Part shown: positions 39,676 to 42,703 of the stretch, in pieces
Layout: each line of letters starts with the position of its first letter
Numbering within the stretch: position 1 is the first letter of the stretch
Assembly (NCBI GenBank): GCA_021157895.1
Contig: JAGGVQ010000007.1
Span: 1 to 56,468 of the forward strand
DNA: 56,468 nucleotides
Source: Dehalococcoidia bacterium
GTDB taxonomy: Bacteria > Chloroflexota > Dehalococcoidia > GIF9 > AB-539-J10
Reading direction: 5' to 3'
Translations under genes and position numbers: made by a program
The notes under the pieces: model-generated
What the model was told of the DNA's origin: nothing
The model's input: the letters and a program-made list of their open reading frames with translations, nothing else
Database searches by the model: none

Positions 39676-40803
39676 CTATGGAGTGTCCCTAGGCACCCGC
39701 ACGATCAAAGATGTCCCTCTTCCTGGTGTTGATTTCATTTCAATAGTGCCGTTCGCTAGCAGGGCTCGCTGTTTCATTCCAGCTAAACCAAGCTTCCCCA
39801 TACTAGTAAAGTCTCCTTGCTCAGGCAACTTAAACCCTTTGCCGTTGTCATTAACAGCTAAAACAATCTCATCATCTCCAAATTCTAGTGTAATCCAAGC
39901 ATGTGATGCTTCTGCATGTCTTCTGGTATTAGTTAATGCCTCTTGGGCAATGCGGAATAATAAGAGTTCTATCTCAGTGGGCAATCCTCTTTCACTACCT
40001 ATCATCTTAACCTGGATATCAAGTCCGTATTTTTGGGTTAGGTCTTCCGCCATCCACTCCAGTGTTGCTAATAAGCCGAGTTGGTCTAGTATGGGGGGTC
40101 TTAAGTCCTGAACACAGCGCCGCAAGTCTTCTAATGCCCCAATCGCCTGGCTGTGCAGCTTCTCTAAAGATTGTATAAGGGGCTCGCCAGATAACTTCTC
40201 TTCTTCAGTTGAAGTGAGAAAATCTAGGCCCTGCGTGAGAAGGAGCAGGGATTGAGCAAGCTCGTCATGCAATTCCCGGGCAATGCGCGCTCTTTCCTCC
40301 TCCTGCGCTTTGGTAATCTGCTGGACATAAAGACGAGATCTGTTCTCCATATGTCTCCGTTCAGTCACATCCTGTAAGGTCTCTATGGCTCCTATTATTT
40401 CTCCATCGTTATTCTTAACAGGGCTTGCCATAAAATGAAGCCATCTGCCGTTCTCTCCAAGCTGCGGGAAGAAATCTTCGGCTTCGTAGGCACCATCAAT
40501 CAAGGAAGATTTCTTGCCTTTATCCTGGTAGTATTGTTCTATTTCAGCAATAGAGGTTTTGTCTACTATTAAATCAGCCAGAGTTGGCCTCTTCTCAGTG
40601 TAGAATGCCACCCATTGCCTATCTGTCCCGACCACTTTTTCCCTTTTTGCGCCGGAGAGAGATTCGAGCGCTATATTCCAGTGAACGATTTTGTGCTGCT
40701 CATTGATGGTAAATGTCGGAATTGGGGAGCCATCAATGATTTTGCAGGTTATTTCTGACTCTGCTCCCTTTTGCTCAGTAAGTTTGATTTTTGATTCTGT
40801 CAA
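39676..40803 (-). CDS. soluble PAS-domain sensor histidine kinase (HisKA_3/NarX-DegS type)
   Basis: PAS (IVHWN..LE.LSG...VVG; IGAIETLQDVTER), EERARIARELHD H-box, QEALTN, DNGKGF, GLAGM; no TM segment; TTG 40803 after GGAGG. Confidence 0.92.
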   Translation of the reverse strand: MTESKIKLTEQKGAESEITCKIIDGSPIPTFTINEQHKIVHWNIALESLSGAKREKVVGTDRQWVAFYTEKRPTLADLIVDKTSIAEIEQYYQDKGKKSSLIDGAYEAEDFFPQLGENGRWLHFMASPVKNNDGEIIGAIETLQDVTERRHMENRSRLYVQQITKAQEEERARIARELHDELAQSLLLLTQGLDFLTSTEEEKLSGEPLIQSLEKLHSQAIGALEDLRRCVQDLRPPILDQLGLLATLEWMAEDLTQKYGLDIQVKMIGSERGLPTEIELLLFRIAQEALTNTRRHAEASHAWITLEFGDDEIVLAVNDNGKGFKLPEQGDFTSMGKLGLAGMKQRALLANGTIEMKSTPGRGTSLIVRVPRDTP

Positions 40804-41479
40804 CCTCTCCCTCCTCTTGGGGGATATCGTCAAGAGTAATATATCCTTCCCTAAATGCTTTAACTACCATCTCAGTACGGCATCTACAATTCATTTTGGT
40901 AAAGATGTTAGTCAAGTGAGCTTTTACGGTGCGCAAGCTGAGAAACAGATTGGTGGCAATTTCGTTGTTGTTCATCCCTCTAGCCGCTAGCCTCAGAATT
41001 TCAATTTCCTTAGTGGTTAGCTGCACATCAACCTGCTTTCCACCGGTCTCCTTTCCAGTTGCATGTTGCAAAAGCCGGCGGGTTACCGCCGGGTCAAGCA
41101 CAGCCTCACCGGAATAGGTAGCACGGATAGCCCTGGCAATCTCGCTGCTGCGTGCGCTCTTCAGTAAATAGCCACAGGCGCCGGCCTCCAGAAGGCCAAT
41201 AACGTAGTGGATATCGTTATAGGCAGTCAATACCAGTACTGCTGTAGGCGGGCTTGCCTGCTTAATTAATTTTGTAGCCTCAATGCCATTAAGCTTGGGC
41301 ATGACAATATCCATTAAGACTAAATCGGGCTTTAGCTCACTGCCTAACCTGGCCGCCTCCTCACCATCACCAGCCTCTCCGACTACTTCAAAGTCCTTTT
41401 CTCTCTCAAGCAGTTTACGCATGCCTTCCCTTAGCACGGCATGGTCATCGGCAATTAGAATACTTATCTTCGTCTTAAT
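40775..41479 (-). CDS. NarL/LuxR-family response regulator (probable ATT start)
   Basis: In-frame extension IKTKISILIADDHAVLREG supplies beta1 and the DD pocket; VLMDIVMP, GYLLK, LT.KE.EIL...G..N.EIA..L.LS.RTVK.H. Confidence 0.9.
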   Translation of the reverse strand: MKTKISILIADDHAVLREGMRKLLEREKDFEVVGEAGDGEEAARLGSELKPDLVLMDIVMPKLNGIEATKLIKQASPPTAVLVLTAYNDIHYVIGLLEAGACGYLLKSARSSEIARAIRATYSGEAVLDPAVTRRLLQHATGKETGGKQVDVQLTTKEIEILRLAARGMNNNEIATNLFLSLRTVKAHLTNIFTKMNCRCRTEMVVKAFREGYITLDDIPQEEGEVDRIKNQTY

Positions 41480-41549
41480 ATGGCCTTCCTTACGTTTGAT
41501 TACTCAGCTAATTCTAAACTATCCGGCGGATAATATCGACAAGATAGTG

Positions 41550-41601
41550 GACTTTAGGGCGCATGGAATTACGACTTTAGGGCGCATGGAATTACGACTT
41601 T
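41550..41601 (+). repeat. 23-bp tandem direct repeat (2 perfect copies plus a partial third)
   Basis: GACTTTAGGGCGCATGGAATTAC at 41550 and 41573, then GACTTT at 41596; lies in the divergent promoter region. Confidence 0.95.
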
Positions 41602-41645
41602 GGGACGCTGTATGGGGTCGTGTCGGCAAGTACTATATAAGTGAA

Positions 41646-41882
41646 ATGATGAATATGACATTGGTGGTGAAAAAGAGAGAGCCTATCACTAAGGATAGAA
41701 GGCTGAAACGGAAAATGAGAATCCTGACAATACTAGCCAGAGCTGCAGATGATAGCGAGTGCTTAATTTTAACCCGGGAGGAGATGGTGGCACTGGTTAG
41801 GGGGGACATAGGGAGAATAGAGAGTTGGCTGGATAAATTAGACAAACGGCATCCAATTAGGCTATGGCACCAATTAAGCTGA
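41646..41882 (+). CDS. hypothetical small protein (start 41646 or 41715)
   Basis: 3' part of the 41283..41882 frame, downstream of TACTAT at 41631; reads MRILTILARAADDSECLILTREEMVALVRG...; no homology recognised. Confidence 0.45.
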   Translation: MMNMTLVVKKREPITKDRRLKRKMRILTILARAADDSECLILTREEMVALVRGDIGRIESWLDKLDKRHPIRLWHQLS

Positions 41883-41953
41883 GAGAAATGAACGAACAAC
41901 TAGCCGTTAAGTGTCGAGGCCAAGGAAAAATACAAGGAAACAGGAGGTGAAAA

Positions 41954-42322
41954 ATGAAGGTTTTAGTGAAGGAGCCAGAAAGGATTGATGGGAGATCTGT
42001 TCAAACTGGGAGCCTTGTTGCTGCTAGATGGCAAAGTAGCAAAGACTATGCTGTGGGTATTGTAAGTGAGGATCCAGGCAGCCTGTTTAATGAAGAGCAT
42101 CTTAAGAGGGCGACACATGTTGTTCTGCTTAAGAAAGCTTCTGAAGTCACGGCGATAGTCAATAAAGCTAAGAAGGCTTTCTGGGAAAGCGTAGTCCAGG
42201 ACTTTCCGGAGGGAGAATCTAGGCCATATGCGCCATACTCAACCATAGATTTCGATGATGCTTGTAGGAGAGCTCTTCATAACTGGCTAAATCTGCAATA
42301 TTCTCTTTCCCTTAGCAATTAG
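41954..42322 (+). CDS. hypothetical protein (122 aa)
   Basis: Strong AGGAGGTG RBS; globular-looking sequence with C-terminal AFWESVVQDFPE...DFDDACRRALHNWL; no family recognised. Confidence 0.75.
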   Translation: MKVLVKEPERIDGRSVQTGSLVAARWQSSKDYAVGIVSEDPGSLFNEEHLKRATHVVLLKKASEVTAIVNKAKKAFWESVVQDFPEGESRPYAPYSTIDFDDACRRALHNWLNLQYSLSLSN

Positions 42323-42408
42323 CAGGAAGGCAAGAGTTAATGGAGCAACTAACCATGTGAACGCGCGACGGCAACAGCAAATGAAATATTAAGAAAAGGA
42401 GGAGAAAA

Positions 42409-42639
42409 ATGGATCTAGTGATTGGAAAGGTAATCGCAGCAGGGTTGGCTATAGGACTGGGTGCCCTTGGACCAGGCATAGGAATTGGAGTTGCAGGACA
42501 TGGAGCTATGACATCTCTGGGACGTAACCCTGAAGCTAGTGGCAAAATAATGCCTAATATGATCCTGGTGTCCGCTTTCGCTGAAGCCATTTGTATTTAT
42601 GCTTTAGTAATAGCGATAATTATTCTGTTTGTCGTTTAA
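42409..42639 (+). CDS. atpE: second (orphan) F0 ATP synthase subunit c
   Basis: [19 protein letters not shown] loop, [21 protein letters not shown]; intact 76 aa. Confidence 0.93.
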
Positions 42640-42664
42640 GAAAGCGGTTGATGCTCTGGCACCA

Positions 42665-42703
42665 CAGAAAGGCGAGGTTATCCCTCGCCTTTCTGCTAAT
42701 TTT
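42665..42703 (+). terminator. intrinsic terminator after the orphan atpE
   Basis: 13-bp perfect stem CAGAAAGGCGAGG-TTATC-CCTCGCCTTTCTG followed by a T-rich tail. Confidence 0.8.

What the first reader, a model, noticed from the sequence alone, without database searches (positions are those of the whole stretch)
39676..42703. Candidate new system: two-component-controlled operon encoding an alternative ATP synthase c subunit
Seen: a soluble PAS kinase and NarL-type regulator are transcribed divergently from a repeat-containing promoter region. This precedes two unknown ORFs and an intact second atpE with a very strong RBS and its own terminator, 3.5 kb from a complete atp operon. No other atp gene is duplicated. 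Established: c-ring composition and size set the ion/ATP ratio, and PAS domains often sense redox or small ligands. Inference: a signal-induced rotor swap or mixed ring that retunes coupling under energy limitation, or alternatively a c-ring leak or inhibitor-resistance function, with the two ORFs as possible assembly or regulatory factors.
Basis: partly seen in the sequence, partly recalled or inferred. Interest (0 to 1): 0.82.

Follow-up and report, generated by a model that had tools for sequence, protein, structure and literature searches.

The report
Regulated spare ATP-synthase c-subunit cassette
A small, strain-variable gene cassette in a marine Dehalococcoidales bacterium pairs a sensor kinase and regulator with an intact extra copy of the ATP synthase rotor subunit c, and similar cassettes recur in related bacteria, so the membrane rotor protein may be a regulated, swappable part.

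Summary
Window 39543-42821 holds a cytoplasmic PAS/HisKA_3 kinase and a NarL-type regulator. They are divergent from three 23-nt tandem repeats, a decayed small ORF (orf78), an unknown 122-aa ORF, an intact second F-type c subunit (c2) and a terminator.

New findings:
- **Accessory cassette.** The whole 3.28-kb stretch is missing from a same-genus genome, where S16 abuts endonuclease V. Its nearness to the atp operon is therefore incidental.
- **Recurrence.** Orphan c genes lie next to the same kind of two-component system in 4 of 8 orphan-c genomes examined, and on 2 metagenome contigs. Most also carry a 2-TM partner protein that this window lacks.
- **Selection.** c2 is under purifying selection (dN/dS 0.09-0.28, like operon c genes).
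- **Dedicated control.** The repeat operator occurs once in the 737-kb assembly.
- **Captured promoter.** This kinase/regulator family usually drives other energy-metabolism operons, for example a formate/nitrite-transporter operon.
- **A/V-type host.** One carrier genus has only an A/V-type ATPase.

Best reading (about 0.5): a signal-induced accessory rotor proteolipid. A swap into F1Fo is untested. It is a new variant of a known kind, since ectopic Fo-subunit duplicates are known.

The parts
39543..42821 (.). Accessory cassette (3,279 bp), present here and absent from same-genus genome G001. It is flanked by an imperfect 8-bp direct repeat, ATGGCTTG (39535-39542) and ATGGCGTG (42814-42821).
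   Evidence: G001 contig C79 aligns to window 33807-39542 (94.2%) and 42816-46921 (95.0%), with a 6-nt overlap. Junction alignment; sequences.
39676..40833 (-). Cytoplasmic sensor histidine kinase (PAS + HisKA_3 + HATPase_c), 385 aa, TTG start, overlapping the end of the regulator gene.
   Evidence: Pfam. It is 75% identical over 382 aa to the G044 kinase.
40775..41479 (-). NarL/FixJ-type response regulator (receiver + GerE HTH). The listed ORF starts at GTG 41437. The probable true start is ATT 41479-41477, behind SD AAGGAAGG.
   Evidence: Pfam, (receiver match begins at profile position 10). Reading. The same ATT context is seen in G044. 80% identical to the G044 regulator.
41550..41618 (+). 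Three tandem 23-nt repeats (two perfect, the third degenerate). This is the presumed regulator operator.
   Evidence: core ACTT..GGG present in 14 of 20 related intergenic regions. Unique in the assembly.
41627..41642 (+). Conserved promoter box CAAGTACTATATAAGT, with a -10-like TATAAGT at 41636-41642.
   Evidence: Aligned with G044 and seen in related loci. Its function is inferred.
41646..41882 (+). orf78: a decayed member of a small-protein family. Full-length members (L083) weakly resemble PF14407, below its cut-off. It has an internal deletion of about 13 aa and no SD.
   Evidence: query residues 6-39 and 53-95 match separately. Pfam on the full-length homologue L083: 23.1 bits against a cut-off of 48.
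41954..42322 (+). orf122: a soluble protein of unknown function with a strong SD (AGGAGGTG). The C-terminal helical hairpin is conserved.
   Evidence: No Pfam or PHROG family. No fold match.
42409..42639 (+). c2: an intact orphan F-type ATP synthase c subunit, 76 aa. It keeps the glycine-rich helix 1, the R-N-P loop and the helix-2 Glu59.
42665..42695 (+). Intrinsic terminator-like hairpin ending the operon (13-bp stem, 5-nt loop).
32131..38940 (+). Complete canonical atp operon (atpI-like, a, c1 at 33389-33631, b, delta, alpha, gamma, beta, epsilon). Listed for reference; it is not part of the cassette.

Best explanation
Window 39543-42821 is a strain-variable accessory cassette of Dehalococcoidales.

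A cytoplasmic PAS kinase senses an intracellular signal, which is unknown. It phosphorylates the NarL-type regulator. The regulator binds the three 23-nt direct repeats just upstream of a conserved -10 box and switches on a short operon: orf78 remnant, orf122, c2, terminator.

The product that matters is c2. It is a selectively maintained paralogue of the F-type c subunit. It inserts into the membrane and forms or joins a proteolipid ring of the cell's rotary ATPase, which alters rotor properties such as ring size, ion/ATP ratio, leak or stability.

The promoter and regulator were captured from a family that normally drives other energy-metabolism operons.

**Shown:** gene content, the indel, recurrence of the linkage, purifying selection, and a unique operator.
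**Inferred:** regulation by this pair, ring formation, and any effect on coupling.
For: **c2 is a real c subunit.** It passes PF00137 and TIGR01260 and keeps every invariant position of 11 aligned family c subunits.

**Selection.** dN/dS for c2 pairs with unsaturated dS is 0.09-0.28. For G000 c2 against its relatives it is 0.15-0.20, at dS 1.4-1.6. Operon c pairs give 0.09-0.30. Five further G000-type c2 variants are all intact and keep the lineage-specific A29, S44, K46, P49 and C62.

**Recurrence of the linkage.**
- G044: kinase 75% and regulator 80% identical, and 82% nt identity over 2.1 kb including the promoter.
- Metagenome contigs L070 and L133: 2 of the 80 loci kept.
- G005.
- G521, from another family: PAS-HisKA_3 kinase and NarL regulator divergent from a second NarL regulator, a 2-TM protein and an orphan c.
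- In total 4 of the 8 orphan-c genomes examined.

**Operator.** Repeats and a -10 box are conserved across the regulator family. The paired pattern occurs only here in 737 kb.

**Operon structure.** c2 is the last gene of the operon wherever seen. No terminator-like site lies between the promoter and c2 on the + strand.

**Persistence.** The cassette is held at about 94% nt identity in a run of another study, with the c2 to EndoV junction bridged.
Against: - No expression data exist.
- G044 and its genus g7 show only A/V-type A and B subunits and double-hairpin c. No F1 beta was found in any of the four of five g7 genomes that had a match (the fifth, G042, had no match at all). No F-type a subunit and no PF00119 match was found in G044, the only g7 genome searched for them. 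G044 is 86% complete and G007 95%. So c2 need not work with F1Fo.
- 4 of 8 orphan-c genomes have no adjacent two-component system: G019, G065, G501 and G556.
- This window lacks the 2-TM partner that accompanies c2 in G005, G044, G019 and G521, and on contigs L070 and L133.
- G000 c2 sits on a long branch (1.26) and does not join the c2 clade in the free tree. The AU test does not reject joining it (p 0.49).
- The same-genus genome G001 lacks the cassette, so it is dispensable.
Confidence: 0.5

Rival explanations
1. c2 forms a stand-alone, signal-induced proteolipid ring that works independently of any ATP synthase, together with the 2-TM partner in most cassettes. It could act as a regulated ion leak or conduit, or as a membrane-organising ring.
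For: - The cassette occurs in G044, whose genus shows only an A/V-type ATPase.
- c2 travels with its own small 2-TM protein in four genomes (G005, G044, G019, G521) and on contigs L070 and L133.
- No F1 or stator gene ever accompanies it.
- In G501 and G556 the orphan c is divergent from a tandem universal-stress-protein gene.
Against: - c2 keeps the R-N-P loop and the rotor carboxylate that serve contacts with the central stalk and the a subunit. I expect that conservation only if it still meets a rotary enzyme.
- No autonomous bacterial c-ring function is known to me (recalled, not searched).
- G044 is 86% complete.
Confidence: 0.2
2. The cassette is a neutral or decaying passenger. It is a mobile fragment that captured a promoter, and c2 makes no contribution to fitness in this genome.
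For: - It is an indel relative to G001.
- Its distribution is patchy: 4 of the 48 family genomes with an F-type c carry two copies.
- orf78 is degraded.
- The 2-TM and AsnC-like genes have been lost here.
- c2 lies on a long branch.
Against: - dN/dS is 0.15-0.20 against relatives.
- Five further intact G000-type variants differ only by conservative changes.
- In-frame N-terminal indels are seen in the diverged population (table 4, together with P0004 and P0161).
- All functional residues are kept.
Confidence: 0.1
3. c2 is an inducible decoy or resistant c subunit that protects the ATPase from a c-ring-binding natural inhibitor, which the kinase senses directly or indirectly.
For: - c subunits are drug targets, for example bedaquiline and quinolines (titles and abstracts listed).
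- G000-type c2 carries lineage-specific changes near the carboxylate (C62) and in helix 1 (A29).
- It behaves as an accessory, strain-variable gene.
Against: - The kinase is cytoplasmic, with no membrane or periplasmic sensor.
- Paralogous kinase/regulator pairs drive formate/nitrite-transporter and NuoE/F-like operons, which points to metabolic signals.
- No biosynthetic or efflux genes are nearby.
Confidence: 0.07
4. Assembly artefact: a chimeric contig has joined a foreign c gene to this genome.
For: The genome is a 68%-complete metagenome-assembled genome in 18 contigs.
Against: - Logan contigs of runs X1 and X2 bridge the left junction (X1 38900-40236, X2 39142-39864) and X1 bridges the terminator/EndoV junction (42625-43452), at 100% identity.
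- Run X6, from another study, bridges c2 to EndoV (42302-43446) at about 94% identity.
- G005 carries a related cassette at the same S16/EndoV site.
Confidence: 0.02

Closest known systems
Ectopic duplicates of single Fo/F1 subunit genes (survey in PMC4154653; passages read)
   Same: An extra copy of one ATP synthase subunit gene lies outside the main locus. That survey lists species-specific F0C duplications and ectopic F0A and F0B copies.
   Different: The survey treats them as sporadic, mostly species-specific events. Here the orphan c is a conserved clade, mostly with a 2-TM partner. It is under purifying selection and repeatedly sits behind a dedicated kinase/regulator pair. In the passages shown to me that paper does not describe such a linkage.
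Multi-c-gene atp operons of acetogens (Acetobacterium woodii, Clostridium aceticum; atpE1/E2/E3, hybrid rotor)
   Same: More than one kind of c subunit in one organism, and mixed rings are possible. This shows that rotor composition can be heterogeneous.
   Different: Those genes lie inside the atp operon and are co-expressed with it, and one is a V-type double hairpin. Here a single-hairpin c stands alone under its own regulator. I saw only search listings; the details are recalled.
Second whole ATPase sets (N-ATPase operons; two atp operons of Photobacterium profundum SS9)
   Same: Condition-dependent use of alternative rotary-ATPase parts. The abstract of PMC10054830 was seen in the listing.
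   Different: Those duplicate the whole enzyme. c2 scores 42.9 bits against the N-ATPase c model TIGR03322, whose cut-off is 130.85. No other atp gene is duplicated here.
AtpI/UncI (Atp1) and AtpZ small membrane proteins that help c-ring assembly
   Same: In sister cassettes a small 2-TM protein is encoded directly upstream of c2, as AtpI/AtpZ is in atp operons. The Atp1/UncI role in c-ring assembly is stated in the abstracts of PMC9806626 and PMC4383579 (listing).
   Different: The 2-TM proteins match no Pfam family at a curated cut-off. Profile-profile comparison with the operon AtpI-like proteins gives only 20% probability. This window has no such gene.
NarX/NarL-class two-component systems (HisKA_3 kinase with GerE-type regulator)
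   Same: The same domain architecture and the same logic of a regulator acting on repeats at a divergent promoter of energy-metabolism genes.
   Different: The kinase here is soluble with one PAS domain. All NCBIfam equivalog scores are far below their cut-offs (MctS 148.8 against 700; NarL 139.1 against 250). The target is a rotor subunit gene.

Membership tests
F-type ATP synthase subunit c (PF00137 / TIGR01260) | Profile match above the curated cut-offs | tested here: met
   PF00137 64.7 bits against 24; TIGR01260 51.1 against 43.95.
F-type ATP synthase subunit c (PF00137 / TIGR01260) | Helical hairpin with glycine-rich helix 1, a polar R-N/Q-P loop and a carboxylate in helix 2 | tested here: met
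   G18, G21, G25, G27, G30, R39-N40-P41 and E59 are all kept in an alignment with 10 relatives. That these positions are the functional ones is established knowledge (recalled).
F-type ATP synthase subunit c (PF00137 / TIGR01260) | Encoded with the a and b subunits in an atp operon | tested here: not met
   c2 stands alone behind orf122 with its own terminator. The operon has its own c1.
F-type ATP synthase subunit c (PF00137 / TIGR01260) | Forms the rotor ring of an F1Fo complex | not testable with these tools
   This needs biochemistry. The presence of sister cassettes in an A/V-type-only genus leaves it open.
N-ATPase (alternate F1Fo) c subunit, TIGR03322 | Profile match above the cut-off; placement in an atpDCQRBEFAG-type operon | tested here: not met
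   42.9 bits against 130.85. No second atp operon in the assembly.
Na+-binding c subunits | Gln in helix 1 and Ser/Thr directly after the carboxylate (motif recalled from Ilyobacter-type rings, not from a call) | tested here: not met
   G000 c2 has Ile at the helix-1 position and Ala60 after Glu59. G044, L070 and L133 c2 have Ser after the Glu but no helix-1 Gln.
Dehalococcoidales orphan-c clade (c2 of G005, G044, G019, G065) | Groups with the clade in a c-subunit tree | tested here: inconclusive
   The clade has 98/98 support without G000 c2, which is a long branch in a polytomy. The AU test does not reject monophyly: delta lnL 0.17, p 0.49.
Dehalococcoidales orphan-c clade (c2 of G005, G044, G019, G065) | Same cassette context (orthologous kinase and regulator, promoter, orf78 remnant) | tested here: met
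   82% nt identity to the G044 cassette over window 39689-41765, and 71% over c2. The orf78 N-terminus is shared.
Dehalococcoidales orphan-c clade (c2 of G005, G044, G019, G065) | 2-TM small protein encoded directly upstream of c | tested here: not met
   There is no such ORF between 41883 and 42409. tblastn of both 2-TM proteins against the whole assembly gives no hit.
NarL/FixJ-class two-component system | HisKA_3 + HATPase_c kinase, and receiver + GerE HTH regulator | tested here: met
   The kinase H-box ARELHDE and the regulator acidic DD pair are read.
NarL/FixJ-class two-component system | The regulator binds the adjacent repeats and controls the divergent operon | not testable with these tools
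   Only comparative support is available: a conserved repeat architecture and a unique site in the assembly.

The most novel reading that the evidence does not exclude
Orphan F-type c subunits of Dehalococcoidia, usually with a private 2-TM partner, are a signal-induced membrane device in their own right. They would form a proteolipid ring that acts outside the ATP synthase, for example as a gated ion leak or pmf valve for energy-starved anaerobes. That would explain why the cassette lives equally well in hosts with F-type, A/V-type or both kinds of ATPase.
Probability: 0.2. Interest if true: 0.88.

Novelty: new variant of a known kind. Interest (0 to 1): 0.66.

Why it matters
Rotor ring composition fixes the ion-to-ATP ratio and is usually treated as a constant of a species. 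A spare c subunit that is selectively maintained, horizontally shuffled and wired to its own sensor would mean some energy-limited anaerobes can retune or bypass the rotor on demand.

The cassette is small: one kinase, one regulator, one operator and one 76-aa protein. That makes the question directly testable by heterologous expression, by native mass spectrometry or cryo-EM of rings, and by a regulator-binding assay.

Its presence in a genus that has only an A/V-type ATPase raises a sharper question. Can F-type c subunits do something outside F1Fo?

Tried and rejected
- **RNA families.** Rfam on 41300-42900 gave only a chance miRNA-like hit on the terminator (E 0.23). There is no known riboswitch or leader.
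- **Expression.** No RNA holder was listed among the sequencing runs, so expression could not be examined.
- **Joints in laid reads.** Read laying showed no contig joining 39542 to 42822 in the four runs. One X6 joint, 39190 to 43635 with a 43-nt side, is probably another organism.
- **orf122.**
  - Not found in 40 relatives.
  - The word-index search found one homologue.
  - Atlas best score 0.76, a viral cluster, below the useful range.
  - The first AF2 model, from 2 sequences, had pLDDT 52 and was unusable.
  - The second, from 17 sequences, had pLDDT 82 but found no fold: Foldseek PDB best E 0.5; VIA-align wide best Z 5.6, which are generic helical hairpins; BFVD best was an uncharacterised marine-phage protein, E 0.089 over 50 columns.
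  - No Pfam or PHROG family for 17 family members.
- **2-TM partner.** No Pfam or NCBIfam family reached its cut-off. hhalign against the operon AtpI-like proteins gave 20% probability.
- **Complex prediction.** Complex prediction with three copies of c2 plus the 2-TM protein returned no answer (score 0.00).
- **Kinase relatives in species genomes.** The genome-contig scan with the kinase found only the G044 contig as a close relative.
- **Literature.** Searches for a second or orphan atpE, atpE2, c-subunit paralogues, and Dehalococcoidia with F-type and V-type ATPases found no description of an orphan c gene linked to a kinase/regulator pair. This covers only the held library. Supplements of PMC4154653 were not read.
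- **Rejected ideas.** N-ATPase c. Recent in-genome duplication of c1: the two are 58% identical over 71 aligned residues, and both are closer to other genomes' c subunits.

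
Full report
**1. What is in the window**

On the minus strand lie two genes.
- A 385-aa kinase at 39676-40833 has PAS, HisKA_3 and HATPase_c domains and no hydrophobic N-terminus.
- A NarL-type regulator has receiver and GerE domains. Its listed ORF starts at GTG 41437, but the receiver match begins at profile position 10. Reading, the beta-1 strand and the acidic DD pair lie upstream in frame. They follow an ATT at 41479-41477, which is preceded by AAGGAAGG. The G044 orthologue has the same ATT context. 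I therefore take ATT as the start.

On the plus strand, in order:
- two perfect 23-nt repeats at 41550-41595 and a degenerate third copy;
- a box CAAGTACTATATAAGT at 41627-41642;
- orf78 at 41646-41882;
- orf122 at 41954-42322, behind AGGAGGTG;
- c2 at 42409-42639, behind AGGAGG;
- a 13-bp-stem terminator at 42665-42695.

c2 passes PF00137 (64.7 bits against 24) and TIGR01260 (51.1 against 43.95). It fails the N-ATPase c model (42.9 against 130.85). The canonical atp operon runs from 32131 to 38940 and has its own c1. c1 and c2 are 58% identical over 71 aligned residues. Each is closer to the c subunits of other genomes (65-76%) than to the other, so c2 is not a recent local duplicate.

In the 737-kb assembly, which is 68% complete, no other atp gene is duplicated.

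**2. The cassette is an indel**

Contig C79 of the same-genus genome G001 aligns to window 33807-39542 at 94.2% and to 42816-46921 at 95.0%. The two alignments overlap by 6 nt in the query. In G001, S16 directly abuts endonuclease V.

The 3,279 bp between them (39543-42821) is exactly the kinase, the regulator, the promoter, both ORFs, c2 and the terminator. The flanks carry an imperfect 8-bp direct repeat, ATGGCTTG and ATGGCGTG. I saw no integrase or transposase in the cassette.

The 3.5-kb distance to the atp operon is therefore incidental.

Both junctions are bridged by independent Logan contigs. X1 may be the source sample. X6 comes from another study and carries the cassette at about 94% identity, including a contig running from c2 into EndoV.

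**3. Relatives of the cassette**

The record title of the G044 contig names an uncultured Dehalococcoidales bacterium.

In the family, 48 of 119 genomes have an F-type c at E <= 1e-8. Four of those 48 have two copies: G000, G005, G019 and G065. Many other family members carry A/V-type double-hairpin c genes instead.

- **G005 (another genus).** At the same S16/EndoV site, but inverted, it has a GAF-PAS-HisKA_3 kinase and a NarL regulator. These are divergent from an AsnC-like small protein, an 80-aa 2-TM protein and c2. Its congener G023 lacks all of this.
- **G044 (a third genus).** Its kinase is 75% and its regulator 80% identical to ours. It shares the promoter, a 48-aa N-terminal remnant of orf78, and then an AsnC-like gene, a 2-TM gene and c2. 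At nucleotide level it is 82% identical to the window over 39689-41765 and 71% over c2. The part between has been replaced.
- **Metagenome contigs.** Of 80 loci kept from 342 kinase relatives, 2 (L070 and L133) carry the G044-type cassette. L070 sits in a different chromosomal context, next to argS.
- **G019 and G065.** They have a 2-TM gene and c2 beside gatC/gatA, with no kinase or regulator.

Beyond the family, 12 of 401 sampled class genomes show two F-type c matches. I looked at five of the twelve:
- G521 is a single-contig genome of another family. It has a PAS-HisKA_3 kinase and a NarL regulator divergent from a second NarL regulator, an 86-aa 2-TM protein, an orphan c and a 36-aa TM peptide.
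- G501 and G556 have an orphan c divergent from a tandem-Usp gene, upstream of the atp operon (about 2 kb in G501; G556's operon lies on another contig).
- G219 has a second whole operon.
- G570 has operon copies on two contigs.

In total, a kinase/regulator pair lies next to the orphan c in 4 of 8 orphan-c genomes. The 2-TM partner found with a G044 query is rare: 2 of 202 order genomes.

**4. Is c2 a working gene?**

In an alignment of 11 family c subunits, G000 c2 keeps every invariant column. These include the glycine motif, R39-N40-P41 and Glu59.

Nei-Gojobori dN/dS:

| Comparison | dN/dS |
|---|---|
| c2 pairs with dS < 1 | 0.09-0.28 |
| G000 c2 against G044, L070, G005, L133 (dS 1.4-1.6, near saturation) | 0.15-0.20 |
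| Operon c pairs | 0.09-0.30 |

In the tree, the c2 genes of G005, G044, G019 and G065 form a clade with 98/98 support. G000 c2 is a long branch (1.26) left in a polytomy. Forcing it into the clade costs 0.17 lnL, and the AU test gives p 0.49.

Five further G000-type c2 sequences from public data are all intact: P0003, P0004, P0160, P0161 and P0162. They share the lineage-specific A29, S44, K46, P49 and C62 and differ only conservatively. The N-terminal length difference (80 against 76 aa) matches in-frame insertions seen in run X6 (table 4).

So c2 diverged fast once and has been held since.

**5. The two 'unknown ORFs'**

*orf78* belongs to a small-protein family found next to this kind of regulator in 25 of the 80 metagenome loci.
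- Full-length members are about 95 aa and weakly resemble PF14407 (23-31 bits, cut-off 48).
- The same domain ends a 459-aa formate/nitrite transporter in L083 (PF01226, 250.7 bits).
- The window's copy lacks about 13 central residues. Query residues 6-39 and 53-95 match separately (alignments).
- It has also lost the AGGAGG that precedes its homologues.
- I read it as a remnant left when the c2 genes replaced the original cargo of the promoter.

*orf122* has a strong SD.
- Two close relatives exist, P0002 (87% identical) and P0159. Residues 66-121 are invariant in all three, while the N-terminal half varies.
This is an inference.
- The exhaustive search found 35 proteins at E <= 1e-3. They share the motif AFW..FPE..SGDF.P...WL..NYP.
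- There is no Pfam or PHROG family.
- The AF2 model (pLDDT 82) shows three strands and a long helical hairpin, with no convincing fold match.
- Its function is unknown. It occupies the place of the AsnC-like and 2-TM genes of the other cassettes.

**6. Regulation**

The intergenic architecture is conserved between G000, G044, L070, L133 and the transporter-type loci. It consists of two or three 23-nt-spaced repeats with the core ACTT..GGG, a GGGTCGATGT-like element and a TATAAGT or TATAAAT box. The core is present in 14 of the 20 regions printed.

In the 737-kb assembly the paired pattern occurs only at 41551 and 41574. A loose version gave one further hit, against 0-1 per shuffled genome.

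The assembly holds no paralogue of the kinase.

Paralogous pairs elsewhere head other cargo. Nine loci have a second orf78-like match about 1.4 kb further on, as in the L083 transporter. Others have an AsnC-like gene followed by NuoE- and NuoF-like genes (L122 verified by Pfam, L130 by eye).

The family therefore controls energy-metabolism genes, and here its only predicted target is the c2 operon. Actual binding and the signal are inferred, not shown.

**7. How it most likely works, and the main doubt**

The best-supported chain has four steps:
1. a cytoplasmic signal reaches the PAS kinase;
2. the kinase phosphorylates the NarL-type regulator;
3. the regulator acts on the repeats and drives transcription of orf122 and c2;
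4. c2 forms or joins a proteolipid ring.

Genus g7 argues against a strict F1Fo role. In the 4 of 5 genomes with any hit, only A/V-type A and B subunits and double-hairpin c genes were found. G044 additionally has no F-type a subunit. G044 is only 86% complete, but G007 is 95% complete.

Either c2 can serve an A/V-type rotor, or it acts on its own, or it is idle there. I put 0.5 on the regulated accessory-rotor reading and 0.2 on an autonomous ring. The remainder goes to a passenger, a decoy or an artefact.

**8. Novelty**

Ectopic single-subunit duplicates, including F0C, have been catalogued as sporadic events (PMC4154653, passages read). Also known are multi-c operons in acetogens and duplicated whole ATPase sets (listings only).

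My searches of the held library found no report of an orphan c gene that is conserved, carries its own 2-TM partner, and sits behind a dedicated kinase/regulator pair. I class the finding as a new variant of a known kind. It would move higher if c2 proves to work outside the ATP synthase.

Noticed in passing
window 41477-41491 (- strand); L036 about 4965-5010: The response regulator seems to start at a non-canonical ATT codon 4 nt after AAGGAAGG. The same context is kept in the G044 orthologue. Some paralogues (L083, L074) have GTG two codons further in. This may mean deliberately low translation of the regulator.
   Followed up: partly
L083 3729-3803 and L082 3729-3804 (- strand): A tRNA-Met (CAT) gene sits between the regulator-controlled promoter and the orf78-family gene in two transporter-type loci. 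It is therefore apparently inside the regulated transcript's leader.
   Followed up: partly
Genomes of family f1: Genera of one Dehalococcoidales family differ in rotary ATPase type. Only F-type genes were found in G005 and in the 68%-complete G000, only A/V-type in genus g7, and both in G019 and G065. Only 48 of 119 family genomes show an F-type c.
   Followed up: partly
L152 (G521:C1:1005909-1009133): In the single-contig genome G521 the operon-type c, b, delta and alpha genes have no a subunit upstream. PF00119 finds no a subunit anywhere in that genome. The a subunit may be very divergent or missing.
   Followed up: partly
L161 7715-9291; L162 6441-8044: In genus g155 (G501, G556) an orphan F-type c gene is divergent from a tandem universal-stress-protein gene. 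In G501 it lies about 2 kb upstream of the atp operon; G556's operon is on another contig. By match counts this is a consistent feature of 6 of the 7 sampled genomes of that genus.
   Followed up: partly
window 42317-42340 and 42678-42701: A 24-nt inverted repeat (83% complementary) brackets c2. The left arm resembles a second copy of the terminator's 5' stem. It could be long-range mRNA pairing or a cassette boundary. I estimate the chance expectation at a few per cent by hand.
   Followed up: no
window 39545-39556: A perfect 12-nt palindrome, GTGGTTAACCAC, lies just inside the left end of the cassette, about 120 nt downstream of the kinase stop.
   Followed up: no
L083 1965-3344 (- strand); L122 929-3632; L130 175-2850: Paralogues of this kinase/regulator pair head other operons. 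One is a formate/nitrite transporter fused to a C-terminal PF14407-like domain. Another is an AsnC-like small protein followed by NuoE- and NuoF-like flavoprotein genes. This looks like a family-wide regulon theme around formate, hydrogen or redox metabolism.
   Followed up: partly
L036 2080-2994 and 6184-7284: In G044 the cassette is flanked by a SAP-domain protein and a 366-aa protein with no family. These may belong to a mobile region, but no integrase was seen within the 14 kb read.
   Followed up: no
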